Positions 13,569-38,175 of a stretch of DNA of 64,000 bases are shown here, one piece after another. The notes beneath the pieces are model-generated. The model did not search any database. It had not been told where the DNA came from and worked only from the letters and a program-made list of their open reading frames with translations. The stretch's first letter is position 1. The number at the start of each line of letters is the position of its first letter. The position numbers and the translations under genes were made by a program. This stretch comes from Parcubacteria group bacterium GW2011_GWA2_51_10 (lineage in GTDB: Bacteria; Patescibacteriota; Minisyncoccia; Phycocordibacterales; UBA2100), in assembly GCA_001004265.1 (NCBI GenBank), contig LCQS01000017.1, forward strand, positions 2,530 to 66,529, given 5' to 3'.

Positions 13569-14135
13569 AGTTTTTATATTGACCTTTGTATCCCTTACCA
13601 CTTTCGGATATCCAATGGATGCGAAATTGCAACCTGTTGAAAATCCTAAAGTGGTAAGGGACCGCACACGCATTCTTTCGACGAGAATGCACGTGCGTTG
13701 TGTGTCTTCTAATAATTACACCTAATAACCGAAGACAAACTAATAATTCATACTGACACGAGCGAATCTTTTTTATTCGTGCGCCAGTAATTTGCTAGCC
13801 CCTGTTACTCGCCTTAGGCAGTACAGCGGATTAGCACCAGTAAGGAATTTTGTCATGCTGTCATTCAGCCGATGCGGGACAATATACTGAAAAATTTCTG
13901 TATCGAAGATGAAGCAAGATGAAGATAAATAGTCGTGCGGACAAAAAGCCGCATTTTTTCGTTGCACTATTCAATTATCAAAGAGCTGAAAGAGTACACA
14001 CTGCACGACGCGCATGGCTGCGGCATCTTACAGAACGCCCTTCCTTTGCCGAAAGGGCATCGCCGCAATTATATACCAGCAGCGTCTATGCTGCTTCAAT
14101 TCGCCCTCCCCCACTTTGGGGATAACTCATGAGAA

Positions 14136-24390: not shown

Positions 24391-25851
24391 TTATTCTTTA
24401 CGGGGAAAAAGAGTCTCGGGTTTCTTATTCGCTTTTATCGCTGCCCTGATCTTACCTGCAGTTTCAGGCATGATCGGTTCGACCATGTTGCATATAGCTG
24501 AAAGCTCATTTACGTAAAGCGCTATCATGGCTTTACCGATAACCGGGTCTGTTTTGACTACGTTAAACGCCTTCTCCTCAGCTAGCTTTCGGTCCAATCG
24601 CTGAACTGCGCTCGAGATAAAATTTGTAGCTTCATGGAATTCGAACGCGTCGAGAGCACGTGCAAAGTAATCAGGAAGCTGCGTGGCGCGATTAGGACTT
24701 GTAACTGTGATACTTACAGCGGAATTAGTTTCAGAAAGCTGCATGATCCGCGATGTTAAATTCCCGAGACCGTTTGCGAGATCGGCATTATAGGCCTCCT
24801 TAAATCGCTCCATAGTGAAATCTGAATCCTCGAAAGGATGGATGTGCCGCGCGAGGAAGTAGCGCACTGCGTCAGCGCCATAATCACCCACGAGTGCAAT
24901 AGGATCGATGACGTTGCCGAGCGATTTGCTCATCTTCTGTCCTCCGACAGTAATGAAGCCGTGGATGACTATCTGCTTTGTTGGAGGAAGACCTGCGGAG
25001 AAAAGCATCGCCTGCCACATGGCCGCCTGCTGGCGTATCTGATCTTTTCCCGCGAGCTGAAGCGCAATTGGATTCTCCACCGTTCCCCAAAACTTCCTAA
25101 AATTTGGCTCGTCGTCTGGCCATCCGAGTGTTGATATGTAATTCACCAAGGCATCAAACCAGACGAACATCACATGCGAGGGATCATCGGGTACGGGGAC
25201 TCCCCAGGGCATCTTCTCTGCGAGACGCGAGATGCTGAAATCTTCCAAACCCCGCTCGACGAATTTTTTTATCTCATTAAACCGAAATGCGGGAACGACA
25301 AAATCTGGCCTATTTTTGTACATTTCCAAAAGTTGCTCGCGATATTTTGAAAAGCGGAAAAAATAATTCTCCTCGTCAATGAGTTCAAGCTCGAGATTCG
25401 GATGCAGAGGACATCTGCCGTTCACCAATTCCGAATCGGTTTTCTCGAGTTCGCAGCCAACGCAGTACTTTATCGTGTAATTCTTTTTATAGATGTCGCC
25501 ATTTGCAAGACATCGTCGCCAGAATTCCTGCGCCGCAGCTTTGTGATGCGGATCAGTTGTCCTTATAAAAACAAGGTTCGGGAACAAGTTCAGAGCTTCT
25601 TTGAGCGCGCGGTATTTGTCCGCGCACTCATCGACATACCGTTGCGTCTCCTTCCCTTCTTCGAGAGCTTTCCGATAAATCTTGAGTCCATGCTCGTCGG
25701 TTCCCGTATTGAAGAAAACTTCATCACCCATCAAAGCTCTGTATCGCGCAAGAATATCCGCTTGAACGATTTCAAGCGCGAATCCGATGTGCGGATCCGC
25801 ATTCACATACGGCAGAGTCGTCGTGATGTAGTACGCTTTCGGCTTCTGCAT
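24391..25851 (-). CDS. metG: methionyl-tRNA synthetase
   Basis: 486 aa. LPYVNADPHIGF (HIGH region), the Zn-knuckle region, and KMSKSLGNVIDP. Confidence 0.93.
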   Translation of the reverse strand: MQKPKAYYITTTLPYVNADPHIGFALEIVQADILARYRALMGDEVFFNTGTDEHGLKIYRKALEEGKETQRYVDECADKYRALKEALNLFPNLVFIRTTDPHHKAAAQEFWRRCLANGDIYKKNYTIKYCVGCELEKTDSELVNGRCPLHPNLELELIDEENYFFRFSKYREQLLEMYKNRPDFVVPAFRFNEIKKFVERGLEDFSISRLAEKMPWGVPVPDDPSHVMFVWFDALVNYISTLGWPDDEPNFRKFWGTVENPIALQLAGKDQIRQQAAMWQAMLFSAGLPPTKQIVIHGFITVGGQKMSKSLGNVIDPIALVGDYGADAVRYFLARHIHPFEDSDFTMERFKEAYNADLANGLGNLTSRIMQLSETNSAVSITVTSPNRATQLPDYFARALDAFEFHEATNFISSAVQRLDRKLAEEKAFNVVKTDPVIGKAMIALYVNELSAICNMVEPIMPETAGKIRAAIKANKKPETLFPRKE

Positions 25852-25856
25852 GGAGG

Positions 25857-27017
25857 CTAGGTCTTGCCGTTCTTTTCAAACGCGCGCCTTTTTTGGAAAT
25901 CTTTTACGAGCTCCTGGATAGTGCCTGCCGCCGGAACAGACAGAAGCACGCCCAAAAATCCGGCGAGCTTTGCCCCGATGATAAGTGCGAGAATCACCAA
26001 AAGCGGCGGAACGCCGACGACACGCGTGACAACCAGCGGGTAGATAAGATGGTTCTCGAATTGCTGCACAATAATGTAGAGCGCGACAGTGAGAAGTCCG
26101 AGCGTCACGCCTCCGTCCACGAGCGCGATCATGACGGCCGGCACCGCCGCGAGTATGGGACCAAATACCGGAATAATTTCGAATACCGCTGCGATAACTG
26201 CCAACGTGAGTGCGTGCTTCACGCCTAAAACCGTGAGACCCAGATACACCAGAACGCCAACGATGACAGCGAGAAGCAGTTGACCCTGCATCCATAGTCC
26301 GATCTTGCGCTGCGAGCGGCGCCACAGATCGAGTGCATATTCTTGATATTTCAGCGGCGTAACAACGCGCAAAAAATCGTCAACCCCTGTTTCAACAAGA
26401 GCGAAATAAAACGAAAAGACCACGATGAGAATGAACGAGAAGACACCGCCGAAAATAGCGCTTGCCGCCTGGAACGCTCCGCCGAATGCGCCGCCGAATC
26501 CGAGCGCACTGCGAATACTCTCCATAATGGTGCTCGCGGAAATATCATTCGGGATCGGCGCTCCCACGATGCGCGCATATTCACTAAATGCGCCAAGCGA
26601 ATTTATCGCATCGAGATATGCCGGCAAAGAAGAGACGAACGTCGACAAATCTTCCAGCACCGACGGCAGAAAGAAATAGAAAATACTGAAAAACGCGGCG
26701 AACATTATAAGGTACACGAGAATCACGGAAATAAGCCGTGGGAGTTTGCGGCGCATGAGCGAACGCACTGCTGGCTCGATTGCGGAGGCGATAACAACGG
26801 CCGTTATCACAATCAAGAGAATGTCGCGAAGGTAAAAAAGAAACCACACGGCAAGCACAAGGAGGATCGTCTTTATGATCGTGCCGAAGGTTATGGAGAT
26901 AGTCTGGGGGCGGTCGTCCATAGCGACAATCGTAGCATAGTACCAATGTGAGAGCGAAAATAAGCAATAAGCAAAAGGTCCCGCGTGGGGACCTTTTCTG
27001 GGCACGAGGGCGTTCAC
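25857..27017 (-). CDS. AI-2E family transporter (PerM/UPF0118-type permease)
   Basis: 386 aa, multi-TM with the typical AI-2E arrangement. The true start may be the internal MDDRPQ. Confidence 0.7.
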   Translation of the reverse strand: MNALVPRKGPHAGPFAYCLFSLSHWYYATIVAMDDRPQTISITFGTIIKTILLVLAVWFLFYLRDILLIVITAVVIASAIEPAVRSLMRRKLPRLISVILVYLIMFAAFFSIFYFFLPSVLEDLSTFVSSLPAYLDAINSLGAFSEYARIVGAPIPNDISASTIMESIRSALGFGGAFGGAFQAASAIFGGVFSFILIVVFSFYFALVETGVDDFLRVVTPLKYQEYALDLWRRSQRKIGLWMQGQLLLAVIVGVLVYLGLTVLGVKHALTLAVIAAVFEIIPVFGPILAAVPAVMIALVDGGVTLGLLTVALYIIVQQFENHLIYPLVVTRVVGVPPLLVILALIIGAKLAGFLGVLLSVPAAGTIQELVKDFQKRRAFEKNGKT

Positions 27018-27550
27018 TTTTCGAGCGTGACGAAATAATCACGCCCGTTAAGTCTGTCATTCAACGTCCTGAAAGCCGAGCACCATGAGGCACCGTCGGG
27101 ATACATGAACCGTATCCAGGTTCTCCCATGGGAATCCGCCCACGTAACGTCCGGGAAGTACAGGTTACGCCGCGAGCCGCCGCGCTCCGACTTCTCTCTA
27201 CCCCAGCTCGTTTCGAGACAGATCTCATCGCACGCAATAAGAGCGTCAATCATGTTCGGATGCCCCAATGCGAACGATCGTATCGAACTCAGTGCGGTTA
27301 GCCCGCCCACTCCGCCGCGAGTTATTTGACGCCGGTCGCGATGACGGCGAGCACGCAAATCACCGACAAACATTTCAGCACCGCGCTTTTCGATAATAAC
27401 GTGACCACTTATCGTTTCCGCGTTTGGATTTATCGTCCAGCTCTCATCGAACTGCAGGAGTGGTGCGTCGAGATCGACTTCGACGCAATTACGGCCGAGT
27501 ATGCGTATGCGGCCTAATGCCACAAGCGCAAATTTGTCCATTGTCGCCAT
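27014..27550 (-). CDS. hypothetical protein
   Basis: 178-aa ORF in a 4-nt overlap with the downstream permease gene. No recognisable motif. Confidence 0.4.
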   Translation of the reverse strand: MATMDKFALVALGRIRILGRNCVEVDLDAPLLQFDESWTINPNAETISGHVIIEKRGAEMFVGDLRARRHRDRRQITRGGVGGLTALSSIRSFALGHPNMIDALIACDEICLETSWGREKSERGGSRRNLYFPDVTWADSHGRTWIRFMYPDGASWCSAFRTLNDRLNGRDYFVTLEK

Positions 27551-27619
27551 TGCTATCTCCTTGTGCCTCGATGTGCAATCCGAGGATTGGTTTAAGACCC
27601 AACGGCCGCGAATTATAGA

Positions 27620-28894
27620 TTATGCGAATCGTGTTGCCAAATCTGCTATCAAAACTCGTTCCTGCTTCCCCGTATCCCGATCTCGCACAGTGACCGTGTC
27701 ATCTTCGAGCGTCTGGAAGTCGATCGTGATACACGCGGGAGTGCCGATCTCGTCCTGCCGACGATAACGCTTTCCGATGTTGCCGTTGTCGTCCCACATG
27801 ATTTGCGGCACCTCTCTTTTGAGAGAAACGTAGACCTCCCGCGCTTTTGAAACGAGTTCCGGCTTGTTCTTGAGAAGCGGGAAAACCGCAGCAGAAACCG
27901 GCGCTATCTTCGGATTCAATTTCAAGTATACGCGTTTCTCGCCGCCGAGCTCGTCTTCCACGTAGGCAGCGGTAAGAATGGCAAGCACAAGGCGATCAAC
28001 ACCGTAGGACGGTTCAATCACGTGAGGACAGAACTTCTCTCCGCTCTCATCGTTCTGATACGATAGCTCGACGCCTGATTCTTTTGAATGTGCAGAGAGG
28101 TCGAAATCTGTGCGGTATGCAAGGCCAGCAAGCTCTTTGCGTCCAAATGGGAAATCAAATTCGAAATCAATGGTTCGCCGGGAGTAGTGAGCCCGCTCAT
28201 TTTCGGGGACCTCAAGCTCATGAACCAACTCTCTTGGTATGCCTAGCATAGCAATGTATCGATATGTTTCTTGCCTCCATTGCTCAAAATTACTTTCCCA
28301 CTCTTCTGGGCGCACGAAGTATTCCACCTCCATCTGTTCGAATTCGCGCGTGCGAAAGAGAAAATCGCGCGGAGCGATTTCATTTCTAAATGCTTTCCCT
28401 GTCTGGGCAATTCCAAAAGGCAGTCTCGGGTGGAATGAGTCCATTATGTTTTTGAAATTAACGAACATTCCGCCTGCCGTCTCTGGTCGCAAATACACAA
28501 TGGAGGATTCATCCCCTGTCGCACCAATGTGCGTCTTGAACATCATATTAAACTGCCGGAGGGGCCCGAACTCGCCGCCACACTCAGGGCACTTTTTCTC
28601 CACTTGATCGGGACGGTAGCGCCGCTTGCATTTCTTACATTCAACGAGAGGATCGGAAAACCCGCTCACATGCCCGCTCGCTTCCCACACTCTCGGGTTC
28701 ATTAAAATTGCCGCGTCGACGCCATACATATCATCACGCTCTTGTACGAAGAGGCGCCACCAGAGATTCTTGATGTTGTTTTTAAGTTCGATTCCGAGGG
28801 GCCCGTAATCCCACGTACCCGCGAGTCCTCCATAGATTTCACTGCCGGGATAAATAAACCCCCGACGCTTTGCCAGCGACACAATTTTCTCCAT
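27620..28894 (-). CDS. glyS: glycyl-tRNA synthetase (dimeric class II type)
   Basis: Starts MEKIVSLAKRRGFIYPGSEIYGG. Class II motifs. GDE, not alpha2beta2, type. Confidence 0.9.
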   Translation of the reverse strand: MEKIVSLAKRRGFIYPGSEIYGGLAGTWDYGPLGIELKNNIKNLWWRLFVQERDDMYGVDAAILMNPRVWEASGHVSGFSDPLVECKKCKRRYRPDQVEKKCPECGGEFGPLRQFNMMFKTHIGATGDESSIVYLRPETAGGMFVNFKNIMDSFHPRLPFGIAQTGKAFRNEIAPRDFLFRTREFEQMEVEYFVRPEEWESNFEQWRQETYRYIAMLGIPRELVHELEVPENERAHYSRRTIDFEFDFPFGRKELAGLAYRTDFDLSAHSKESGVELSYQNDESGEKFCPHVIEPSYGVDRLVLAILTAAYVEDELGGEKRVYLKLNPKIAPVSAAVFPLLKNKPELVSKAREVYVSLKREVPQIMWDDNGNIGKRYRRQDEIGTPACITIDFQTLEDDTVTVRDRDTGKQERVLIADLATRFA

Positions 28895-28924
28895 TGTTAC
28901 ACCGCTTTCACTCTGCATTGTTTG

Positions 28925-28964
28925 AGTGTACTACGTTCTACGTACTACGTTCTACTTTCTAGTT
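28925..28964. repeat. heptamer tandem repeat (TACTACG/TTCTACG-like) upstream of glyS
   Basis: tactacg ttctacg tactacg ttctact ttctagt tctacc. Confidence 0.7.
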
Positions 28965-30821
28965 CTACCTCACAACAGTAGCTTCCAAGGGCGAGAATCC
29001 CCTATCGCCGATAATGTTCGTCGTAACATCCCGCACTGCTTTTGTAACGACCGCGCCCGTGGCCGAATCAATGCCAGTGAGGGTAATTCCCTGTAAGAGC
29101 ACGGGCTCTTCGCCTATTTGACTCGTCGACGGCGTAAAACCAACCGCGATTTCCGCCCATCGGATCGGGGAGCTAATGCCAACACCGGATGCTATGTCGC
29201 CTATTCTCCACGTCAGACTGCCGTCACTTACGTTAAAGGAAATATCTTCTCCCGCTTCCGGCTTGTACATTCCGAGCGAACGCACGTAGGGCGGCATCTG
29301 TGCCGTGAGCCGGGCGTTCTGTATCGCATTCGTCGTATTGGTCACTGTAAAAAGAATCGCATACGTAGTTTCCTGATTCGCTCTCGGCGGCAGTGGCCCC
29401 GTACTGACAAAAGGGTTCTCATAATAGAGACCCTGCGCCGCAACTTCCAACTCGCTCGCGAGTTTTAATGTTTTGCTCGCTGTTGCCCGAAGATTTCCCG
29501 GCACCCCCGTTTCCGAAAGACGTTTACCGGCGGCGTTGGTGCTGATAACGATGCTCGGATTCTGAATTCCGAAGGGCAGAGGCTGCGGAACCTGGAATGA
29601 AAAGCCAACGGTGCCGCTTCCTCCCGCGGGGAGGGAGGAGAGAGAACCGCCTGTTGTGGTTTTGTCCCACAGAATTGCGCTGTCGGAAGAGCGATAGTAA
29701 CCGTCGGTCGAACGGACGCTCGCCCCGTCAATTTCGATTCCAGAAAGACGCGCGACAATTACCGCGTCGGTTATTGCCGTCGACAGATTGTTTTTCCATT
29801 CAATGGAAACATTCACCGATTCTCCGGGAGCAACGATAGTCGCCGCCTCGCGGCCTTGGGGGTTTCCGCTAAAAGACTCTCCGGGGCTTCCGCTCCCTTC
29901 TTCTTTCTGCACTGTGATAGAGAGGCTGAGGAAAGCCTGCGAAATAACCATGCGGTGCGAATAATCCGCGACTACTGTTTCCAGAATGGCGCCCCCCTTG
30001 TCCTTGCGCGTCCCGACTGATGTGCGGAATATGCGCTCGTCGCCTTCTTCTCCGGTGAGCGTGCCGCGGAGCGTCACTGACACGCGCTCCCCCGGATTTA
30101 TATTCCCCAACGCCCAGAGCCCTGGCCGCTCGGGGCGAGGATCACCCGAGCTAAATGCGAAGCCAAATGGGTAGTCAATCTTGAGAAGCACGTCATTGAC
30201 AGGTGCAGGCGCGTTCGATGCAACCGTCACTGTAAGGAGCACCTGCTGCCCAGAGACAGTCTCAGTATTGCTCTCGACGGATATCGAAAGCGACGACGAG
30301 CTAAAAACTAATTCATAATCCAAAGACGTTCCTATCGCAACTCTCCGTTCCGGTTCGTCCGTTGTCCCTGGAGCGTGCGTGCCCAAAGGAAACGTAATGA
30401 CGAGATCGGCAAGATCGAGTGCCGCACGATTGTTGTTGGTTATTACGATCTGCAATTTTGTCGGCTCGCCGCCCGCTATGCGCGTCGGCGCAGAAATAGA
30501 AATGGCAGGAGGGGTCGGCTGGGAGCCGGCGCCGATTGTAAAATAGTAGGCGAGAAACGCGACGGCGCCGATAAGAAATGCGAAGCCCGTTATGAGGAGC
30601 CAGCGTCCAATAGTACTCATCACCTTTCCGCCTACGGCTACTGCCGCCGTCGCAGGATGCGGCGGCGGCATCTCTTTGCGCCACTCTTCAGAGACGGGGA
30701 GTGACTCTTCATCCATCTCGCGCCGAGGGCGATCCTTCAGACGCGACGAAAGCGAGCGCGAATACATCGCGCGACGCAGGCGATCTATCTTTTCTTCGTC
30801 CTGTGGCGAGTTCTCCATCAC
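28965..30821 (-). CDS. membrane-anchored extracellular multi-domain (CARDB/DUF11-like) protein
   Basis: 618 aa. Cytoplasmic N-terminus, one TM (WLLITGFAFLIGAVAFLAYYF), then repeated beta domains. Confidence 0.55.
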   Translation of the reverse strand: MMENSPQDEEKIDRLRRAMYSRSLSSRLKDRPRREMDEESLPVSEEWRKEMPPPHPATAAVAVGGKVMSTIGRWLLITGFAFLIGAVAFLAYYFTIGAGSQPTPPAISISAPTRIAGGEPTKLQIVITNNNRAALDLADLVITFPLGTHAPGTTDEPERRVAIGTSLDYELVFSSSSLSISVESNTETVSGQQVLLTVTVASNAPAPVNDVLLKIDYPFGFAFSSGDPRPERPGLWALGNINPGERVSVTLRGTLTGEEGDERIFRTSVGTRKDKGGAILETVVADYSHRMVISQAFLSLSITVQKEEGSGSPGESFSGNPQGREAATIVAPGESVNVSIEWKNNLSTAITDAVIVARLSGIEIDGASVRSTDGYYRSSDSAILWDKTTTGGSLSSLPAGGSGTVGFSFQVPQPLPFGIQNPSIVISTNAAGKRLSETGVPGNLRATASKTLKLASELEVAAQGLYYENPFVSTGPLPPRANQETTYAILFTVTNTTNAIQNARLTAQMPPYVRSLGMYKPEAGEDISFNVSDGSLTWRIGDIASGVGISSPIRWAEIAVGFTPSTSQIGEEPVLLQGITLTGIDSATGAVVTKAVRDVTTNIIGDRGFSPLEATVVR

Positions 30822-30859
30822 TCAATGATACCAGAATTCTTAACTGAACCGTCGTCGTA

Positions 30860-31438
30860 TTATAAATGAGTCTCGGTGATCGCTCGATTAATCGACGCGA
30901 TAAGTGCCGGCTCCAATGCTTTTGCTTCACGCAAATGCGGCTCCGTATATGCCGTGTGCGCAAAGAGAGCGGTCCCTAAGGCTTCGGAAGAAATGTATCC
31001 GAGCGCAAAAAGAGTGCGGGCCACACACAAGAGCTCTATCGGCGCGGTAGCTGCGCGCGAAGTATTCTCCATGAGTGCAGCATGCGCGTGAGATAGAACT
31101 TCAAAAAGGTATTCGTTTGATTCCTCGCCCGCTACAAGGCGCGTAACAAGTTCTGCGATCCGCGCGAATGCGGCAATAGAGCGTGGATCCGCGCCCTCCG
31201 AACCAGAGAGGGCCCGTGCGCCGGCAAGCCGCCAACCGCCCGACCCACGCACAAGCGATACGGATGCGCGCGAATAATTTTGCACGGCGTAGCGCATTTT
31301 TGATTTTTCCGCCCGCACAGCTCGCGCTCGCGCGCGAATAAGCCCAAACTCTTTCGTGTAGAGCGCAATCGTACGATCGGCTTCTCCGCTCACACGATTT
31401 CCGAGGACAAGTGCTTCAGTGTGATATTTTTGGTACAT
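30860..31438 (-). CDS. recO: DNA repair protein RecO-like (short form, no zinc finger)
   Basis: 192 aa. N-terminal OB-fold TEALVLGNRVSGEADRTIALYTKEFGLIRARARAVR matches the RecO N-domain. Lacks the Cys4 motif. Confidence 0.5.
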   Translation of the reverse strand: MYQKYHTEALVLGNRVSGEADRTIALYTKEFGLIRARARAVRAEKSKMRYAVQNYSRASVSLVRGSGGWRLAGARALSGSEGADPRSIAAFARIAELVTRLVAGEESNEYLFEVLSHAHAALMENTSRAATAPIELLCVARTLFALGYISSEALGTALFAHTAYTEPHLREAKALEPALIASINRAITETHL

Positions 31439-31447
31439 GAGAAAACA

Positions 31448-31477
31448 GCTTCTAGCTTCTAGCTTGTAGCTTGTAGG
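31448..31477. repeat. heptamer tandem repeat (CTTCTAG x2, CTTGTAG x2) overlapping the 3' end of ileS
   Basis: The repeat encodes the last residues (...YKLQARS) of ORF 31452..32078. Confidence 0.7.
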
Positions 31478-32078
31478 ATACTTTTCCCTGATCGATCAAA
31501 AACTCATCCGGCAATGGTTCTTTGCTGAACCCGACGTTATGAACATTAACAGATGTGCAGATATCCGTTTTGTGTTTTTCAATTATAGTGCGCACATTTT
31601 CAGATACATGCAAAGATAGGTCAACTACATCTCGCGGATTGAGTCCCGCCTCTTTGCGCGCACTCTGAACTGCACGGATAAATTCGCGGACGAAGCCTTC
31701 CTCACGCAGTGCGTCCGTGAGGATCGTATCCAATTGTACTTCATCATCATTAAGATTGGGATCGAGCACGACTTCTTTTACATTCACTTCTTCAGCAATT
31801 ATTGAAAGAAGCGTATCGCGATCGCGGGAAGGCGGCAAGGCTTTGAGGGGTACCGTCAGCTTAGAAAGCGGTTGGCGCACGCGGATTTTCGCCGCGCTTC
31901 GCGCCTCGAGTGCATTCGAAACGATGCGCCGCGCTGCCGCCATTTTCGGGAGCGTCGATTCTTTGCCGAACAGCCTCGCAAAAAATGCGCGGCGGCGCGG
32001 CAAAGGCCAATCCTCCAGATGAACGCTTTCCTTCGCGCCTCCGATACCTCGATATATGCTCTCTGCAAGAAAGGGCAT
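31452..32078 (-). CDS. ileS: isoleucyl-tRNA synthetase, C-terminal tRNA-binding domain, on a separate frame
   Basis: 208 aa. MPFLAESIY...ESVHLEDWP is the IleRS C-terminal junction motif. It is in a different frame from, and 11 nt beyond, the stop of the main ileS ORF. Confidence 0.7.
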   Translation of the reverse strand: MPFLAESIYRGIGGAKESVHLEDWPLPRRRAFFARLFGKESTLPKMAAARRIVSNALEARSAAKIRVRQPLSKLTVPLKALPPSRDRDTLLSIIAEEVNVKEVVLDPNLNDDEVQLDTILTDALREEGFVREFIRAVQSARKEAGLNPRDVVDLSLHVSENVRTIIEKHKTDICTSVNVHNVGFSKEPLPDEFLIDQGKVSYKLQARS

Positions 32079-32089
32079 GAAAGGCGCTA

Positions 32090-34825
32090 TTAGTCTCGAA
32101 ACACCGAGTAGAACTTCTTTCTGCGTTGCGAGTGCGTACTGTTTGTCAGAAGCGCATCCGTCACATCAGTGATTACTTGGTCGAGACGCTCGAAGACCCA
32201 CCGATCGAGGAGATGCTCACTTTTTCTTCCTTCTGTCGTTCCATCGTATTCGGATTTATAGAGCTCGAAGAATTTATATGTGTTCCACAGAATTCCGATG
32301 ACGCGGTTGTGCGCATCGCGTACATCCTCGTCGCGAAAATTTAGATCTTCCGCCTGCATGACGACGCTTCCTAAGAGGTGGAAGCGGAATGCGTCAGCGC
32401 CGTATTGGTCGAGAAGAACTAACGGATCCGTGTAATTCCCTTTCGATTTCGACATTTTAGAGCCGTCGGCTGCGAGAATCGTTCCCGTCGAAACCACGTT
32501 GCGAAATGTGAGCCGATTGAAAAGAAGCACCCCCATCGCGTGCATATAGTAGAACCATGTGCGCGTTTGAGCTATATATTCAGCGATAAAATCGCCAGGT
32601 GCTCTTTTTTCAAATTCTTTTTGATTTTCGAATGGGTAGTGATATTCGGCAAAAGGCATCGAAGCCGATTCGACCCAGCAGTCGACCACTTCCGAAATGC
32701 GCTCATACTCCCGCCCCTCGTCGTCGGCGAGAACAAGATTATCCGTATATGGGCGATGTAGATCGAGTTCGTAATCGCGATTGACAGGTATAGGCACAAA
32801 AGGAAGCTCCTTCATTTCTCCCACCTTCGGGTATTCGCGCATTCGCCGAGCGAGAGCCTCCGCTTTTGAGTCACCTTCCGATGCGGCAACGAGCATCCAC
32901 AGCGGCGTGCCATGAGACACAATTAAAATATTTTTATTCTTGTGAGTTCTCTCGAGCTCCCACAACATCTCGCCCATTCTTCGCTTAACGTCAGTGTAGG
33001 TCTCGCCCCCTTTCGGGCCTCGCGTGAAGTGCTCGAGCCGCTCGGGAAATGCCGCCCGATATTCTGAGCGGAGCCTTCCCTCAAAAACACCAAATGCATT
33101 CTCAACAAGACGATCGTCAAAAAATACATTCTCCTCCGGAACATTAAACCTCTCCGCCGCGAGAACTGCCGTTTCTTTCGTGCGCTGGAGCGGCGATGAG
33201 TAGATTATGCTGATTTCCGCATTGAAATCCGCGAGTGATTTTCTAATCCTGTCTCTGCCGTCCGCGGTGAGGTGTATATCTGCGTCGGGATTCGAACTCA
33301 CGATATCTCGCGCATTCGAATCGGACTCCCCATGCCGCATGATGAAGTATCGATTGCCACTTTTTTTGACTCTCGCTTTTAGTTCATTAAGAGAGCCGAT
33401 GACCATAACCCTCTTGCCTCCCTTCTCTTTCCAGATCGGTAATGGAGAGGCCCAGAAGCGATTGCGCGAAATCGTCCAATCGGGAGCAGTTTCAACGATG
33501 TTCTTGAATCGTCCATGCTTCAGATGCCCTGGGATCCAGTTCACTTTCTCATTCTCCCCGAGCATTCGTTCTTTAACCTTCTGGATCTTGATGAACCACG
33601 AGGAGACGGCATTGTAAATGAGCGGTGTGCCGCATCGGTAACAGTGCGGATATGAGTGTGTGTAATTTTTCTTTTCAAAAAGAAGGCCGCGCGCTTCGAG
33701 ATCGTGTTTAATGTCACGCTCCGCGTCCTTCACATACTTTCCTCGCAAGAACGCAGGCACCTGCTCGTTATAATTCCCACTCGCGTCCAAAAGCTGCACC
33801 ATCGGAAGTCCAATTTTCTGGCCGAGCGCGAAGTCATCTTCCCCGTACATGACGGCCGTATGCACGATCCCCGTGCCCTCTTCCGTCGAAACAAAATCCG
33901 CTGCATACACTCTGAATGACTTTGGGGATCGGAGCGCAGGAATTTCAAAAAGCGGCTCATATTCGACACCGATCAATTCATCACCTTTCATTTCCTCAAT
34001 GATCTCATCGCTCTCCTCGAGAATATTTTTTGCAGCAACGAAATACCCTCCAGCTCTTTTAAAAAGCGCGTACCCGATGTCTTTCCCGATCGCAAGTGCG
34101 AGGTTTCCCGGGAGCGTCCACGGCGTTGTCGTCCATGCAAGCAGATACGTGTCTTCTGCCCATTTATAATCTTCGGGGTTGCGCATCTTGAATTTCACGG
34201 TGACTGCCTCTTCCGTGATGTCCTTGTACGTTTGATCCATCGCTATCTCCGCTTTCGCGAGCGGCGTTTCGCAATGGGTGCAGTACATGAGAACCTTGCG
34301 ACCTTCATACAAAAAAGCTCGCTCATATAATTTCTTGAGCGCCCACCAGACGCTTTCGATGTAGCTGTTATCCATCGTCTTGTAGGAATTCTTGAAGTCA
34401 ACCCAGCGGCCGACGCGCTCAACATAGCGCTCCCACTCATGCTCGAATTCCAAAACAGAGGCGCGCGCCGCTTCGTTAAACACATCAACACCAATTTTCT
34501 CGATGTCTTTTTTTGTCTTTAGATTGAGGCGTTTTTCTATCAAACTTTCTATTGGAAGACCATGGCAATCCCACCCCCACCGGCGACGCACGAAATATCC
34601 CCGCATCGTTTTGTAGCGCGGGATAACGTCCTTTATGACCGATGAGAGGAGCGAGCCAGAATGAGGAAGGCCAGTTGCAAACGGAGGCCCGTCGTAAAAT
34701 ACGAACTCGCCTTTAGGAGCGTCCTTTTTTAGAGATTTCTCAAAAACGCCGCTTTCATTCCAGAATTTCAGTACTTCTTCCTCTCGGAGCGCCGCTCCCG
34801 ATTTCTTCGAGGATTCATCCATCAT
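32090..34825 (-). CDS. ileS: isoleucyl-tRNA synthetase (type 2-like) with an inserted histidine-phosphatase-like domain
   Basis: 911 aa. GPPFATGLPHSGS (HIGH-region variant), the CP1/editing motif TTTPWTLPGN, and KMSKSKGNY. Residues about 471-685 (RHGESDSN...SPLQRTKETA...SHG) match the PGM/His-phosphatase signature. Confidence 0.85.
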   Translation of the reverse strand: MMDESSKKSGAALREEEVLKFWNESGVFEKSLKKDAPKGEFVFYDGPPFATGLPHSGSLLSSVIKDVIPRYKTMRGYFVRRRWGWDCHGLPIESLIEKRLNLKTKKDIEKIGVDVFNEAARASVLEFEHEWERYVERVGRWVDFKNSYKTMDNSYIESVWWALKKLYERAFLYEGRKVLMYCTHCETPLAKAEIAMDQTYKDITEEAVTVKFKMRNPEDYKWAEDTYLLAWTTTPWTLPGNLALAIGKDIGYALFKRAGGYFVAAKNILEESDEIIEEMKGDELIGVEYEPLFEIPALRSPKSFRVYAADFVSTEEGTGIVHTAVMYGEDDFALGQKIGLPMVQLLDASGNYNEQVPAFLRGKYVKDAERDIKHDLEARGLLFEKKNYTHSYPHCYRCGTPLIYNAVSSWFIKIQKVKERMLGENEKVNWIPGHLKHGRFKNIVETAPDWTISRNRFWASPLPIWKEKGGKRVMVIGSLNELKARVKKSGNRYFIMRHGESDSNARDIVSSNPDADIHLTADGRDRIRKSLADFNAEISIIYSSPLQRTKETAVLAAERFNVPEENVFFDDRLVENAFGVFEGRLRSEYRAAFPERLEHFTRGPKGGETYTDVKRRMGEMLWELERTHKNKNILIVSHGTPLWMLVAASEGDSKAEALARRMREYPKVGEMKELPFVPIPVNRDYELDLHRPYTDNLVLADDEGREYERISEVVDCWVESASMPFAEYHYPFENQKEFEKRAPGDFIAEYIAQTRTWFYYMHAMGVLLFNRLTFRNVVSTGTILAADGSKMSKSKGNYTDPLVLLDQYGADAFRFHLLGSVVMQAEDLNFRDEDVRDAHNRVIGILWNTYKFFELYKSEYDGTTEGRKSEHLLDRWVFERLDQVITDVTDALLTNSTHSQRRKKFYSVFRD

Positions 34826-34861
34826 CCTATCGTATCAAAAAGAGCACGAGGCGGACACTGC

Positions 34862-36523
34862 TTACATTTTTTCGGGAGCTGGAATGCCAAGCAGCCACAA
34901 TCCATTTTTCAAGGTCGAGCGGACTGCCGCCGTGAGCGCAACTTTGTGCGGTGAGCTTGTCGAACCGTCAAGGATTTGCTCCGCTGCATACCAGTGATTG
35001 AAACTAGAGGCGAACTGCAGGAGGAAGTTCGTCAAAAAATGCGGCTCGCGCGCGTCAGATGCCGCGGCGACAGCGTCGGGAAAGCGAATAAGCAGGCGTG
35101 CGACTTCATTCAGCGCTGCTTTTTCATCAATTTTCGGAGCGACTCCGGCTTCGACCGCTTTCTCTAGGATCGCACTCGCGCGCGCATGCGCGTACTGCAG
35201 GTATGGACCCGAATCGCCTTCAAGCGAGAGAGCACGCTCCTTCTCAAAAATAATATTCCGGCCTGATGCTTGTTTCAGTACCTGGTATTTGATCGCGGCA
35301 ACCGCGATATCGCGCGCGAGCTCGTCAGGATTCGCTGCCCGCGATTCCTTTGCGCGTTCCCGTGCGCGCTCCACCAACTCTTCGAGGAGCGACTCGCCTG
35401 TGATGATTTTCCCCGTGCGTGAAGACATCTTGCCTTCCGGCAGACGCATCATGCCATGTGTAAGATGCTCGATCTTGCGTGCAATATCCGGCATCAATTC
35501 TTTCATAGCCGCGAGAACAACTGCGAAATACTCCTTTTGTTCGTTCCCGGTTACCGTTATCGAAATATCGAACGGCCATGCTTCTGCCTTCATCACTGCA
35601 AGTCCGATATCTTTCGCCTCATACGTCGGGAGCCCACTGCCGGTAATGAATACGCGCGTATGTAGGCCCACCTTTTCCCCGCGAAATATCGTCGCACCGT
35701 CACTTTTTTCAAAGATTTCCGGATTCTCTCTTACGATCTCTGTCCCACGCGGCCCCGTCTCACTCTCAAAAAAATAGAAATCGAATTTTGTTCCGAGCAT
35801 TTCATACAGACGTTCGAAATGCTCCAGCGAAACCCTTCGGCCTTCTTCATAGATTTTTTGGATTGCCGCATCGGATTTCTCGTATATTTTCTTATTGAGC
35901 TCGTCTATCTCCCCTTTTGCCTGCGGATCTTCCTCATACGCAGCATTGCCTTTTGCATATGCGAGAGAGAGCGCGGGAAGATCAATTTTCTGAACATTGT
36001 CCTTTACGAGCTGCCAGATCGCTTTTGCTACATGCGGTCCTACATCACCCTGATAGTTCGCGCGCTTCAAAACCGCTCCGCTCCCTTCCAAAAGGCGCGA
36101 TACTGATTCGCCGATAGCGTTGCTCATGAGATGTCCGATGTGGAATTCCTTGAAAGGATTCGGGTCCGTGTATTCAACGAGGATGCGTCTTCCCGCAAGT
36201 AGGGAGCTCCTTCCCCATTGTTCCGCATTGGCATTTGCCTCCTTGATTGTCGCGGCAAAAAATTGAGGCGAGAGATAAAAATTGATAAATCCGGGTCCTG
36301 CTATCTCTATTCTTTCAACACCCGAAATTTCGCCGAGAGCTCCGACGATTTTCTCCGCGAGTTCACGAGGCGGCGCTCCGGCATCTTTTGCATGGGTGAG
36401 CGCGGCGTTCGTCGCATAATCGCCGCGCGCTAGATCGGCCGGATATTCTATGACAGCTTGCCCCGGCTCGAGACCAATTTTATTCAACGCATCGGCAAGG
36501 CTCCGCTCTAGAATTTCTCGCAT
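34862..36523 (-). CDS. argS: arginyl-tRNA synthetase
   Basis: 553 aa. N-terminal Arg-tRNA add-on domain, HIGH-like FHIGHL, KMSSRTG (KMSKS variant), and the DALR anticodon-binding C-terminus. Confidence 0.9.
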   Translation of the reverse strand: MREILERSLADALNKIGLEPGQAVIEYPADLARGDYATNAALTHAKDAGAPPRELAEKIVGALGEISGVERIEIAGPGFINFYLSPQFFAATIKEANANAEQWGRSSLLAGRRILVEYTDPNPFKEFHIGHLMSNAIGESVSRLLEGSGAVLKRANYQGDVGPHVAKAIWQLVKDNVQKIDLPALSLAYAKGNAAYEEDPQAKGEIDELNKKIYEKSDAAIQKIYEEGRRVSLEHFERLYEMLGTKFDFYFFESETGPRGTEIVRENPEIFEKSDGATIFRGEKVGLHTRVFITGSGLPTYEAKDIGLAVMKAEAWPFDISITVTGNEQKEYFAVVLAAMKELMPDIARKIEHLTHGMMRLPEGKMSSRTGKIITGESLLEELVERARERAKESRAANPDELARDIAVAAIKYQVLKQASGRNIIFEKERALSLEGDSGPYLQYAHARASAILEKAVEAGVAPKIDEKAALNEVARLLIRFPDAVAAASDAREPHFLTNFLLQFASSFNHWYAAEQILDGSTSSPHKVALTAAVRSTLKNGLWLLGIPAPEKM

Positions 36524-36535
36524 AAAACCATTGTA

Positions 36536-37162
36536 TTACGTCTTGCGAACCGCGTCCCACACGCGCGCGAAAACCGCTTCTGGTGCATCGTTTCGTGCAA
36601 CACGAATTATCTTCCAACCCTTTTGCCGTGCCATCGCGCGATACACACCAGCAACTTTTTTCTGATAGCTGGCATCTCTTTCGTGCCTATCTTTCTTTTT
36701 CCGGACAATATGCTTCTGCGCCTCCTCCACCGATATATCGAGATACAAAATCAAGCTCGGCTTTGGAATTGATAAATCTTTGAACTCCAACGATTCAACA
36801 AATCTAAAAAGTTTCTCGCGAGATCTGCCTGCCAGTTTCGCGCCCTGATATGCCACACTGCTCGTGTAACGATTCGAAATAACAATGCCTCTCTTCCGCG
36901 CAGCGCGAATTTTATCGGCAGCTAACGCGCGATCGAGCGAATAAAGAATAGATACGAGGTATGGAGACATCGCGAGGGGATCACCATATCGACCGCGCAG
37001 CATCGCCCCTATGATTTTTCCTACTTCTGATGAATAATCCGGAAAATCAAAAACCGTCACAGTGTGCCCTTCTTTCCGAAGCCGCTTTGCGAGCAGTTTG
37101 ACCTGTGTCGCCTTCCCAGCCCCATCGATGCCTTCAAAGACTATAAGATTGCCTTGCCACAT
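36536..37162 (-). CDS. tmk: thymidylate kinase
   Basis: Start placed at MWQGNLIVFEGIDGAGKATQ (P-loop). Also has the DRY-like motif and lid region. Confidence 0.88.
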   Translation of the reverse strand: MWQGNLIVFEGIDGAGKATQVKLLAKRLRKEGHTVTVFDFPDYSSEVGKIIGAMLRGRYGDPLAMSPYLVSILYSLDRALAADKIRAARKRGIVISNRYTSSVAYQGAKLAGRSREKLFRFVESLEFKDLSIPKPSLILYLDISVEEAQKHIVRKKKDRHERDASYQKKVAGVYRAMARQKGWKIIRVARNDAPEAVFARVWDAVRKT

Positions 37163-37250
37163 AGCGAGATTATCGGCTAATAGCGCTGCGTCGTCGATGG
37201 CGATAAACAAAAGGCTGCTTCCCAGCAGCCTTCTTCCGCAATGCTTCTTG

Positions 37251-38175
37251 TCATGCTGGCGCAAGCGGACACAGTGCCTTCGCATCGGCGATCATCGTTT
37301 TGGCGGTCGGGACAGGGCCCGCGCCCACGCCGAGCACCAAGATCGGATCACCCTCCTGATCGATGCGCACGGCATTGCCCGGGCCATGGTCAGGAACCCA
37401 GCGATCCATCGCCGTACCCGCCGGAATGTGGCAAAAACCGCCGCTGATACTCGTCGCTGAGCGGCTGCATCTCAATATCCTCTGGCCGAACCGTCTGACC
37501 GGACATCGCATGCAAAGAGGGCACATCATTAAGAATGATCGCCAACTTCTTGCGGATGTCGGAGAGCTCGCCCTGGAAAACATCGAGTGGACTCATCTCT
37601 TCACCGTCTGCTGGAGGTTCAGCGTACTTAAGGTGAATTGCCTCCCAGATTGCGGCTTCGACCGAGGATCCTTTCCAGATATCGCTCATCACCTTGCTCA
37701 GTGTCCCGTTCACCACAAGGTCGACGACGAACGGCACCGTTGGGTCGAGCCGCTCTTTCAGCTCCGGCAGGATGCGCGTACCGCCACCGACGGTCGCCGT
37801 ACGTCCGATCGTATCAAGATGCGGCCGCAGTACGTCGTAAAAGCTCGCGAACGCGGATTTGCCAGACGTCACGACTGCAATGCCCACGCCCGTTAGAGAC
37901 AAGATGTAGCGCGTCTCTGTGGACCCGTCACCACTACTTGGAATCGTAAGAAGCGCGAGCTTCACGCCATGTTTGAGACAGAACGGCCCGACAGTCATCA
38001 TGATTTCGGCTGCATCTCCGCGACGATCAAAAGTAACGGCCGCGCCAGCAAGTGGAATAAAAGCCCTGCTGGAAACTTGTGCCACTACATCGTAGCCCAC
38101 GCCGCGTGATTGCCGCGCTACTTCGAGTCCGACGTTTCCGGCACCGATAACGATTACTTTCAGTTTCTGCGTCAT
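37251..38175 (-). pseudogene. hom: homoserine dehydrogenase (hom), interrupted by a frameshift
   Basis: N-terminal part in the 37390..38175 frame carries KVIVIGAGNVG, ATVGGGTRILPEL and NGTLSKVM...KYAEP. The C-terminal NAVRIDQEGDPILVLGVGAGPVPTAKTMIADAKAL is in the 37251..37583 frame. Confidence 0.6.

What the first reader, a model, noticed from the sequence alone, without database searches (positions are those of the whole stretch)
32771..33415. Histidine-phosphatase (PGM-family) domain inserted inside isoleucyl-tRNA synthetase
The 911-aa IleRS ORF is continuous and carries all IleRS hallmarks (HIGH-region variant PHSGS, the editing-domain motif, KMSKS). Residues about 471-685 form an extra domain with the branch-1 histidine-phosphatase signature. 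The signature elements are FIMRHGESDSN (the RHG catalytic His motif), SPLQRTKETA and IVSHGTPL (second His). The IleRS backbone resumes at DLHRPYTD...VVDCWVESASMPFA. Nucleotides 33329-33337 encode R-H-G directly (checked by hand). A phosphatase-fold insertion in an aaRS catalytic core is not a standard feature. It could be a moonlighting or regulatory module.
Basis: partly seen in the sequence, partly recalled or inferred. Interest (0 to 1): 0.7.

Follow-up and report, generated by a model that had tools for sequence, protein, structure and literature searches.

The report
Histidine phosphatase nested inside IleRS
The isoleucyl-tRNA synthetase of this groundwater Parcubacteria genome has a complete, apparently active histidine-phosphatase enzyme nested in a surface loop of its catalytic core, an undescribed layout shared by about a hundred related uncultivated species.

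Summary
Residues ~489-675 of the 911-aa IleRS ORF (window 32801-33361, minus strand) are a full branch-1 histidine-phosphatase domain (Pfam His_Phos_1, E 8e-34; AlphaFold pLDDT 95; Foldseek hits PspA, PhoE, GpgP, TIGAR). It replaces a 5-residue linker in the CP3 subdomain of a type-2 IleRS.

It is not an assembly artefact. At least 98 species-representative Patescibacteria genomes carry it at the same site. In 67 of the 80 loci kept it lies in one uninterrupted ~1085-1290-aa ORF, mostly in the same ArgRS-IleRS-RecO neighbourhood. The catalytic set (R497, H498, R548, E575, H638) is invariant or nearly so.

The same phosphatase subfamily also occurs free-standing, fused to TsaC, and nested in ValRS, in up to four copies. 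A close relative's IleRS lacks the insert.

My best reading is a bifunctional polypeptide carrying an autonomous phosphomonoesterase, one case of a lineage habit of loading small enzymes onto essential translation genes. Coupling to aminoacylation is not excluded. The substrate is unknown.

Caveat: the window's own gene is broken. An out-of-frame ~110-nt deletion near 32150 removes a conserved anticodon-domain helix. I found no paper describing this architecture. Interest is moderate to high.

The parts
32090..34825 (-). 911-aa ORF: type-2 IleRS with nested phosphatase. The last 19 residues are out of frame.
   Evidence: TIGR00392 728 bits; 1ile E 9e-180.
34652..34663 (-). HIGH signature in the variant form H-S-G-S (aa 55-58).
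   Evidence: HSGS/HAGS/HHGS occurs in 7 of 68 insert-bearing IleRS.
33362..33451 (-). N-terminal part of CP3 (aa ~459-488, ...PIWKEKGGKRVMVIGSLNELKARVKK). It lacks the Zn-knuckle cysteines.
   Evidence: alignment to T. thermophilus IleRS up to residue 482. CP3 limits from PMC7955072 and PMC7191050; 4-Cys knuckle kept in 20 of 68.
32801..33361 (-). Nested His_Phos_1 module (aa ~489-675, from SGNRYF to KELP).
   Evidence: pLDDT 95.4, pTM 0.92; Foldseek 4ij5, 1h2e, 4pz9, 3dcy.
33329..33337 (-). R497-H498-G499. His498 is the predicted phospho-accepting nucleophile.
   Evidence: translation. R and H are 68/68 conserved.
33182..33184 (-). R548 (SPLQRT), second phosphate-pocket arginine.
   Evidence: 68/68 conserved.
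33101..33103 (-). E575 (LVENAFG), predicted general acid/base.
   Evidence: 67/68 E and 1 D.
32912..32914 (-). H638 (VSHG), second catalytic histidine.
   Evidence: 68/68 conserved.
32681..32800 (-). Conserved return tether F-x-P-[LI]-P-H/V-N-x-x-Y-E-L-D, then the CP3 C-terminal part DLHRPYTD...ISEVVDCW.
   Evidence: P680 65/68, N682 57/68, HRPY 68/68. IleRS alignment resumes at aa 687, equivalent to 1ile residue 488.
32444..32458 (-). KMSKS loop (aa 790-794).
32093..32152 (-). Break point: about 37 codons (~110 nt, not a multiple of 3) are missing after VTDAL. The downstream 19 codons of the ORF are out of frame.
   Evidence: alignment with 67 intact relatives; pLDDT <50 for aa 900-911.
31452..32165 (-). 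Remaining IleRS C-terminus in the other frame (SDKQYALATQ...; Anticodon_1 C-terminal part plus DUF5915). The called ORF is 31452..32078.
   Evidence: (PF08264, PF19302).

Best explanation
The gene encodes the housekeeping, eukaryote-like (type-2) IleRS of a Parcubacteria/Paceibacteria bacterium. A complete ~185-residue branch-1 histidine phosphatase is nested in its CP3 subdomain.

Shown:
- The domain has the family's fold and its full catalytic set.
- The insertion site, both junction motifs and the gene neighbourhood are conserved across about a hundred species-level lineages.
- The IleRS scaffold around the insert is unperturbed.

Inferred:
- The domain is an active phosphomonoesterase using the canonical two-step mechanism. 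His498 attacks the substrate phosphate, which is held by Arg497, Arg548, Asn504 and His638. Glu575 protonates the leaving group and then activates water to hydrolyse the phospho-histidine.
- It works autonomously on a small-molecule phosphoester. Its closest relatives are the PspA, PhoE, GpgP and CobC-type phosphatases.
- It is therefore a passenger enzyme hosted in a permissive surface loop of an essential gene, not a new step of aminoacylation. This fits a lineage-wide habit of loading small housekeeping enzymes onto translation genes.

The substrate is unknown. In this particular assembly the host gene is disrupted near its 3' end, either by a real deletion or by an assembly error.
For: Domain identity:
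- Pfam E 8e-34.
- AlphaFold of the insert gives pLDDT 95.4 and pTM 0.92.
- Foldseek probability 1.0 to 4ij5, 1h2e, 4pz9, 6s2q, 3dcy, 9mmh and 6nru.

Selection on catalysis:
- R497, H498, R548 and H638 are 68/68 conserved, E575 67/68 and N504 65/68, although the insert is only 36% identical on average.
- The signature R-H-G/A-N-R-E/D-H is intact in almost all of 247 domain copies.

Real and vertically inherited:
- At least 98 GTDB species representatives carry it.
- Of the 80 loci kept, 67 have one uninterrupted ORF.
- ArgRS-IleRS-RecO-DUF11 synteny holds in 48-62 of 81 loci.
- There is no GC anomaly.

Peripheral site:
- The insert falls between 1ile residues 482 and 488, inside CP3.
- CP3 is structurally variable and surface-exposed (PMC7191050, PMC13439101).
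- The full-length model has pLDDT 90.8 and pTM 0.88 and superposes on type-2 IleRS.

Autonomy:
- A close relative's IleRS (P0036) lacks the insert. It is 56% identical after the site, closer than several insert-bearing relatives.
- The same subfamily exists free-standing and fused to TsaC, at up to 49% identity to nested copies.
- Patescibacteria TsaC is fused to many unrelated small enzymes: Ogt, TruB, 2H, MPG, GNAT, NUDIX.
- IleRS relatives also host alpha/beta-hydrolase, GNAT and Y1-transposase domains.
- The insert is acidic (median pI 5.6), which is unlike an RNA-binding module.
Against: - No activity or substrate is known. None of the NCBIfam equivalogs (dPGM, CobC, PspA, GpmB, SixA) reaches its cut-off.
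- IleRS is by far the dominant context of this subfamily: 96 of the top 150 cluster representatives.
- His_Phos has been inserted repeatedly, at several sites and in up to four intact copies, into two paralogous editing synthetases, IleRS and ValRS. That is more than a casual passenger model predicts.
- Both junctions are conserved (N491 68/68; P-x-P-H-N...Y-E-L-D), and AlphaFold gives a confident global model. This suggests a fixed geometry relative to the synthetase.
- CP3 adjoins the CP2-3 linker that lines the tRNA CCA-end pocket (PMC7955072).
- I could not inspect model coordinates.
- I could not check whole genomes for a second IleRS or for complementary gene loss.
Confidence: 0.55

Rival explanations
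1. The nested phosphatase is functionally coupled to the synthetase. It would be a third active site acting on something generated or needed at a class-Ia or adenylate-forming enzyme. Candidates are hydrolysis of PPi or AMP to pull activation, destruction of a phosphorylated by-product or inhibitor, or removal of a 2'/3'-phosphate from a damaged tRNA 3' end before charging.
For: - Its hosts are IleRS, ValRS and TsaC, all ATP-to-acyl-adenylate-plus-PPi enzymes of tRNA biology.
- Insertions into equivalent loops of IleRS and ValRS are repeated and independent, with every copy catalytically intact.
- The junctions are conserved and the global model is confident.
- CP3 adjoins the linker that lines the CCA-end pocket (PMC7955072).
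- The best NCBIfam match is the phosphatase half of the bifunctional RNase H/acid phosphatase, another fusion to a nucleic-acid enzyme.
- Some TsaC relatives are fused to 2H cyclic-phosphodiesterase-like domains.
Against: - TsaC in these bacteria is fused to many functionally unrelated enzymes, so fusion carries little functional information here.
- A close relative's IleRS lacks the insert.
- Free-standing copies are as close as nested ones.
- The domain is acidic.
- Branch-1 histidine phosphatases bind terminal phosphomonoesters, not diesters or adenylates (established knowledge).
- No known member is a pyrophosphatase (from memory).
Confidence: 0.25
2. The domain is a regulatory module. It could be a sensor of a phosphometabolite, or a phospho-protein (pHis/pSer/pThr) phosphatase like SixA, PGAM5 or Sts-1, that tunes IleRS or a partner.
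For: - The superfamily includes protein phosphatases.
- The cap region is small (~30 aa), which leaves an open active site.
- In human IARS1, CP3 is a protein-protein interface (PMC13439101).
Against: - The closest sequence and structure matches are small-molecule phosphatases.
- SixA scores weakly: 30.7 bits against a cut-off of 74.5.
- No kinase or partner is conserved in the neighbourhood.
- Multi-copy variants are hard to explain as sensors.
Confidence: 0.1
3. This particular gene copy is a decaying pseudogene, or a dispensable second IleRS, so the architecture has no function in this organism.
For: - An out-of-frame ~110-nt deletion removes the conserved WYxRRSRxR helix.
- The same truncated product is the deposited GenBank protein.
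Against: - 67 relatives have intact ORFs in the same conserved aaRS-rich neighbourhood.
- The rest of the gene has no further stops or frameshifts and models at pLDDT ~91.
- No second IleRS lies in the 64-kb window.
- Tiny CPR genomes rarely keep duplicate synthetases (established knowledge).
- A local misassembly of a 2015 short-read MAG is at least as likely.
Confidence: 0.07
4. The feature is an artefact: a chimeric assembly, or an ordinary IleRS insertion with only chance similarity to phosphatases.
For: None found.
Against: - The junctions are in frame on both sides.
- The identical architecture appears in at least 98 independently assembled genomes. For the two-domain variant, the same protein appears on 8 contigs from different runs.
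- Pfam E is 8e-34 and the fold is confirmed.
Confidence: 0.01

Closest known systems
Type-2 (eukaryote/archaeon-like) isoleucyl-tRNA synthetase, e.g. T. thermophilus IleRS (1ILE), P. megaterium IleRS2 (8C8V), yeast and Candida IleRS
   Same: - The full class-Ia architecture is present: Rossmann fold, CP core, CP1 editing domain with WTTTPWT and GTGIVH motifs, CP2, CP3, KMSKS.
- phmmer against 1ile gives E 9e-180.
- Foldseek TMt is 0.79 to 1ile.
- The C-terminal DUF5915 is as in type-2 enzymes.
   Different: - A ~185-aa enzyme domain replaces the 5-residue CP3 linker (1ile residues 483-487).
- The CP3 Zn knuckle is lost.
- The HIGH motif reads HSGS.
- The anticodon-binding domain is interrupted in this assembly.
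Small branch-1 histidine phosphatases: metal-independent phosphoserine phosphatase PspA (4IJ5), PhoE/YhfR (1H2E), glucosyl-3-phosphoglycerate phosphatase (4PZ9), CobC (6NRU), TIGAR
   Same: - The fold matches (TM 0.65-0.70, probability 1.0).
- It has the RHG...R...E...H catalytic set and a small cap.
- Sequence E is 8e-13 to 4ij5.
   Different: - Identity is only 22-27%.
- It is below every NCBIfam equivalog cut-off.
- It forms its own subfamily with an invariant SGN-x-Y/F lead-in.
- It is nested inside another enzyme instead of free-standing.
Bifunctional RNase H / acid phosphatase (Rv2228c type, NCBIfam NF005567)
   Same: - A His_Phos_1 domain is joined to a nucleic-acid enzyme in one polypeptide.
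- It is the best NCBIfam match for the insert: 86.7 bits to the phosphatase half.
   Different: - It is an end-to-end fusion, not a nested insertion.
- The score is far below the cut-off of 326.
- The partner enzyme is different.
IleRS carrying another enzyme domain: NCBIfam NF040702 'isoleucine--tRNA ligase, N-acetyltransferase domain-containing'
   Same: It is a precedent for an IleRS that carries an extra catalytic domain. GNAT-bearing relatives were also seen here: P0243 has GNAT at the site after HFPFEN.
   Different: - The domain family is different.
- The window protein scores 293 against a cut-off of 1999.
- No curated model exists for the phosphatase-bearing form.
6-phosphofructo-2-kinase/fructose-2,6-bisphosphatase
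   Same: It is a classic bifunctional protein in which a His_Phos_1 domain shares a chain with an unrelated catalytic domain (PDB hits 1bif, 3bif).
   Different: - It is a tandem fusion with opposing activities on one metabolite.
- Here the domain is nested in a loop and no shared metabolite is evident.

Membership tests
Histidine phosphatase superfamily, branch 1 (Pfam PF00300) | Profile match above the gathering threshold | tested here: met
   117.5 bits against 21.7; E 7.9e-34.
Histidine phosphatase superfamily, branch 1 (Pfam PF00300) | N-terminal RHG motif with the nucleophilic His, plus the second Arg, the Glu acid/base and the C-terminal His | tested here: met
   R497-H498-G499, R548, E575 and H638 are present and 67-68/68 conserved in relatives. 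The set is intact in almost all of 247 copies.
Histidine phosphatase superfamily, branch 1 (Pfam PF00300) | Alpha/beta/alpha PGM-like fold | tested here: met
   AlphaFold pLDDT 95.4. Foldseek probability 1.0, TM 0.65-0.70 to 4ij5, 1h2e, 4pz9 and 3dcy.
Histidine phosphatase superfamily, branch 1 (Pfam PF00300) | Phosphatase or mutase activity through a phospho-histidine intermediate | not testable with these tools
   Requires an enzyme assay.
Isoleucyl-tRNA synthetase (NCBIfam TIGR00392 ileS) | Equivalog score above the cut-off | tested here: met
   728.3 against 621.4, even for the truncated ORF.
Isoleucyl-tRNA synthetase (NCBIfam TIGR00392 ileS) | Class-I signature motifs HIGH and KMSKS | tested here: inconclusive
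   KMSKS is present. HIGH reads HSGS, with the fourth His replaced by Ser. This variant is shared by 7 of 68 relatives and its effect is unknown.
Isoleucyl-tRNA synthetase (NCBIfam TIGR00392 ileS) | Intact anticodon-binding and C-terminal domains in one reading frame | tested here: not met
   About 37 codons are deleted out of frame at ~32150 and the remainder lies in ORF 31452..32078. The feature is met in 67 relatives.
Cofactor-dependent phosphoglycerate mutase (NF038349, TIGR01258 and others) | Equivalog score above the cut-off | tested here: not met
   72.4 against 225, and 25.5 against 81.7.
Phosphoserine phosphatase PspA (NF045917) / alpha-ribazole phosphatase CobC (TIGR03162) / SixA (TIGR00249) | Equivalog score above the cut-off | tested here: not met
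   66.7 against 350, 72.2 against 162.9, and 30.7 against 74.5.
Intein (self-splicing protein insertion) | N-terminal Cys/Ser nucleophile, and a C-terminal His-Asn followed by Cys/Ser/Thr | tested here: not met
   The insert begins ...KKSGNRYF and ends ...PVNRDYELD. In relatives, H-N is followed by D/E/K and then Y, not by a nucleophile. Pfam finds no Hint domain.
Mupirocin-resistant IleRS MupA/MupB (NF000257/NF000258); IleRS with GNAT (NF040702) | Exception-model score above the cut-off | tested here: not met
   585 and 570 against 1900; 293 against 1999.

The most novel reading that the evidence does not exclude
This histidine-phosphatase subfamily may be a dedicated accessory catalytic module of class-Ia and adenylate-forming tRNA enzymes in Patescibacteria. 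It would form a third active site, besides synthesis and editing, placed next to the acceptor-end entrance. Possible roles are removing a phosphate from a product, an inhibitor or a damaged tRNA 3' end, or hydrolysing PPi in cells with minimal metabolism. That would explain why it has been inserted repeatedly into equivalent loops of IleRS and ValRS, in up to four intact copies, and fused to TsaC.
Probability: 0.22. Interest if true: 0.85.

Novelty: new variant of a known kind. Interest (0 to 1): 0.62.

Why it matters
- Aminoacyl-tRNA synthetases are among the best-studied enzymes. Accreted domains are well known in eukaryotes, but a complete second enzyme nested inside the catalytic core of a bacterial housekeeping synthetase, and conserved across a large uncultivated clade, has not been described in the literature I could search.
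- If the phosphatase is autonomous, metabolic reconstructions of Patescibacteria are missing enzymes hidden inside genes annotated only as 'isoleucine-tRNA ligase'. A PspA, PGM or PhoE-like activity would be one example. The result would also document a distinctive mode of genome economy, in which small enzymes are loaded onto essential translation genes.
- If the phosphatase is coupled to charging, it would be a new kind of synthetase accessory activity.
- CP3, and the loop after HYPFEN, emerge as natural permissive sites for engineering domain insertions into class-Ia synthetases.

Tried and rejected
- Chimeric assembly or chance similarity: rejected.
- Intein or other self-splicing element: rejected. 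There are no splice-junction residues and no Hint domain.
- Membership in dPGM, CobC, PspA, GpmB or SixA: all below cut-off.
- RNA-binding appendage: unlikely, because the insert is acidic.
- Recent horizontal acquisition: no GC anomaly, and synteny and site are conserved.
- Guilt by association from the TsaC-His_Phos fusion (the PPi/adenylate idea): much weakened when TsaC proved to be fused to many unrelated enzymes in the same lineage.
- Exact look-up of the 911-aa product found nothing, because the deposited call starts at the second Met. The 910-aa version was found later.
- The search for homologous proteins listed only proteins under 600 aa, so its hits were mostly fragments or frameshift pieces. 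Full-length genes came from genome loci instead.
- Eight literature searches found no description of a phosphatase-bearing IleRS.
- The correlation of insert and core pairwise identities was weak (Pearson 0.37). It neither proves nor excludes strict co-divergence.
- I could not read model coordinates, so the distance from His498 to the synthetic site or to A76 is not known.
Full report
**1. The observation**

The minus-strand ORF 32090..34825 encodes 911 aa. Pfam finds tRNA-synt_1 on both sides of a His_Phos_1 match at aa 494-655 (E 7.9e-34, 117.5 bits against a gathering score of 21.7). Nucleotides 33329-33337 translate to R-H-G. NCBIfam's ileS equivalog is passed (728 against 621 bits).

The window comes from Parcubacteria group bacterium GW2011_GWA2_51_10. 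The protein is GenBank KKW19263.1, annotated only as 'Isoleucine-tRNA ligase'.

**2.

- Alignment with 67 intact relatives shows that ~37 codons are missing after ...VTDAL (aa 892, ~nt 32150). The missing stretch is YD...F..D.S.WY.RRSR.R.K..., and the reading frame shifts. The text resumes in the other frame as SDKQYALATQKEVLLGVSRLIAPFMPFLAE.
- Residues 893-911 of the '911-aa IleRS' are therefore frameshift junk. AlphaFold gives them pLDDT <50 while the rest of the chain averages ~91.
- I cannot tell whether this is a true deletion or a misassembly of a 2015 short-read MAG.

**3. It is a real histidine phosphatase**

- AlphaFold2 of aa 480-700 with 46 homologues gives pLDDT 95.4 and pTM 0.92.
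- Foldseek against the PDB returns only branch-1 histidine phosphatases at probability 1.0 and TM 0.65-0.70. They are metal-independent phosphoserine phosphatase 4ij5, TIGAR, glucosyl-3-phosphoglycerate phosphatase, the riboflavin-pathway HFP 9mmh, PhoE and CobC.
- phmmer against PDB sequences agrees (4ij5 E 8e-13).
- No NCBIfam equivalog cut-off is reached. The best match is the phosphatase half of the bifunctional RNase H/acid phosphatase. The domain therefore belongs to the superfamily but to no characterised subfamily.

**4. Where it sits**

- Against T. thermophilus IleRS (1ile) the alignment stops at residue 482 (...ELKARATK) and resumes at 488 (FDPHRPYVD). About 198 residues thus replace a 5-residue linker.
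- This is inside CP3: yeast 459-526 (PMC7955072) and Candida 473-534 (PMC7191050).
- CP3 has a different topology in every solved IleRS (PMC7191050). In human IARS1 it is a surface used for protein-protein contact (PMC13439101).
- The preceding CP2-3 linker helps form the tRNA CCA-end pocket (PMC7955072).
- Insert-free relatives read ...GSVSELKEKTG-GAPDDLHRPYID... (P0036) at this point.
- The full-length model (pLDDT 90.8, pTM 0.88) superposes on type-2 IleRS structures, with TMt 0.79 to 1ile.

**5. It is conserved, not an artefact**

All 80 loci kept are Patescibacteria MAGs, labelled Adler-, Zambryski-, Nomura-, Taylor-, Yanofsky-, Colwell-, Wolfe- and Wildermuthbacteria, Paceibacterota and others.
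- In 67 of them the gene is a single uninterrupted ORF of ~1085-1290 aa with the insert at the same site.
- ArgRS, RecO and the DUF11 protein flank it in 62, 56 and 48 of 81 loci respectively. This is the housekeeping gene in a stable neighbourhood.
- The insert evolves faster than the host (mean pairwise identity 36% against 50%). Even so, R497, H498, R548 and H638 are 68/68 conserved, E575 67/68 and N504 65/68.
- Both junctions are conserved: N491 is 68/68, and the return tether is F-x-P-L-P-H-N-x-x-Y-E-L-D before HRPY.

**6. The wider family**

An exhaustive phmmer search of the insert against 1.84 billion cluster representatives gave 856 hits at E<=1e-10. Of the best 150:

- 96 are IleRS or IleRS fragments.
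- 44 are apparently free-standing ~190-260-aa proteins.
- Two are TsaC/Sua5 with a C-terminal copy (P0202, P0255).
- One is a copy followed by a weak AlkB-like match (P0240).
- One is a ValRS-like protein with four copies.

Other variants:

- IleRS with two copies (P0252). The identical protein P0266 from the same 90% cluster was found on 8 contigs from different runs.
- IleRS with copies at three different sites (P0260).
- IleRS with His_Phos plus an alpha/beta-hydrolase (P0039).
- IleRS with an in-frame IS200-like Y1 transposase domain, His_Phos and GNAT (P0243).

A further search confirmed ValRS with His_Phos nested at the CP3-equivalent loop (P0386, P0387, P0391). It also found one nested at the loop before ETG.DILFFW (P0390), which is equivalent to a second IleRS site.

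Every copy, even in multi-copy proteins, keeps the catalytic signature. It is intact in almost all of 247 copies. Free-standing and TsaC-fused copies are up to 49% identical to nested ones, which is closer than many nested copies are to each other. This is one subfamily that has moved between contexts.

**7. Mechanism: what is shown and what is inferred**

Shown: fold, catalytic residues under purifying selection, insertion site, conservation.

Inferred from the established chemistry of the superfamily: the domain is a phosphomonoesterase (less likely a mutase). It would work through phospho-His498, with Arg497, Arg548, Asn504 and His638 holding the phosphate and Glu575 acting as acid/base.

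The open question is whether it serves the synthetase.

For autonomy:
- A close relative's IleRS lacks the insert. It is 56% identical after the site, closer than insert-bearing L013, L002 and L004.
- Free-standing siblings exist.
- The domain is acidic (median pI 5.6).
- Patescibacteria TsaC is fused to a whole series of unrelated small enzymes: Ogt, TruB, 2H phosphoesterase, MPG glycosylase, GNAT, NUDIX and His_Phos.
- IleRS itself hosts GNAT and hydrolase domains.
- Loading small housekeeping enzymes onto essential translation genes therefore looks like a lineage habit.

For coupling:
- IleRS is the dominant context of the subfamily.
- Insertions into equivalent loops of two editing synthetases are repeated.
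- Multi-copy forms are intact.
- The tethers are conserved and the global model is confident.
- CP3 lies next to the acceptor-end pocket.

I put about 0.55 on the autonomous-passenger reading and 0.25 on functional coupling. Regulation gets 0.1 and a dead gene copy here 0.07.

**8. Novelty**

Eight full-text searches found no paper describing a phosphatase-bearing IleRS. The library lacks most subscription journals, so this is not proof of absence. NCBI curates an exception model for IleRS with a GNAT domain (NF040702) but none for this form. Database records call these proteins 'isoleucine-tRNA ligase' or 'class I tRNA ligase family protein'.

The components are known kinds. The nested arrangement, its breadth, and the multi-site, multi-copy variants in IleRS and ValRS are a new variant.

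**9. Limits**

- I could not read model coordinates.
- I could not scan whole genomes for a second ileS or for complementary gene loss.
- I could not test activity.
- The fraction of Patescibacteria IleRS that carry the insert was not measured without bias.

Noticed in passing
window 32093-32165 (-): The IleRS gene is interrupted. About 37 codons, including the conserved WYxRRSRxR helix of the anticodon-binding domain, are missing out of frame. The C-terminal ~230 aa continue in another frame (ORF 31452..32078). The truncated product is the deposited GenBank protein KKW19263.1.
   Followed up: yes
window 34652-34663 (-): The class-I HIGH signature reads H-S-G-S. Among 68 insert-bearing IleRS, 7 have HxGS. 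About 25 have GxHH or AxHH, the swapped motif reported (from memory: Brkic et al. 2023; PDB 8c8w) for mupirocin-hyper-resistant IleRS2. The rest have HYGH.
   Followed up: partly
window 24391-37285 (-): This is a synthetase-rich block: MetRS (24391-25851), a class-II aaRS (27620-28918), a DUF11 surface-type protein (28965-30821), RecO (30860-31438), IleRS, ArgRS (34862-36523) and thymidylate kinase (36536-37285). The ArgRS-IleRS-RecO-DUF11 order is kept in most of the 81 related loci.
   Followed up: partly
window 9978-13673 (-), 5010-6380 (-), 61516-62850 (-): Large ORFs of 1231, 456 and 444 aa have no Pfam match at E<=1e-5.
   Followed up: no
P0169 (ENA metagenome protein, 1161 aa, partial); also P0386, P0387, P0388, P0390, P0391: ValRS proteins carry nested His_Phos_1 domains. 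P0169 has four catalytically intact copies, one in the CP2 region and three after WGHRIPVWY. P0386 has one at the CP3-equivalent loop with both ValRS flanks in frame. P0390 has one between DTWFSSGLW and ETGYDILFFW.
   Followed up: partly
P0243 (JGI metagenome protein, 1066 aa): This IleRS has an in-frame IS200-like Y1 transposase domain inside the CP1 editing domain (aa 340-461), His_Phos_1 at the CP3 site, and a GNAT acetyltransferase after HFPFEN.
   Followed up: no
P0039 (528 aa fragment); P0252/P0266 (L082 6001-10407); P0260: The IleRS CP3 hairpin has a second insertion site, between DLHRPxID and RIPEVLDxW. It holds an alpha/beta-hydrolase (P0039) or a second His_Phos (P0252; the identical P0266 of the same cluster is on 8 contigs). 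P0260 adds copies after HYPFAN and inside the anticodon-binding domain.
   Followed up: partly
hits (P0268-P0384): In Patescibacteria/Minisyncoccia the t6A enzyme TsaC (PF01300) is fused to many unrelated small enzymes. Ogt-type methyltransferase (PF01035) is by far the most common. Others are TruB, 2H/LigT phosphoesterase, methylpurine glycosylase, GNAT, NUDIX and His_Phos_1.
   Followed up: partly
L001 (ENA ERZ25039480 contig_72802): This syntenic relative has ArgRS, IleRS and a class-II aaRS each split into several short ORFs. It looks like an indel-rich (long-read?) assembly rather than biology. It explains why many database hits are fragments.
   Followed up: no
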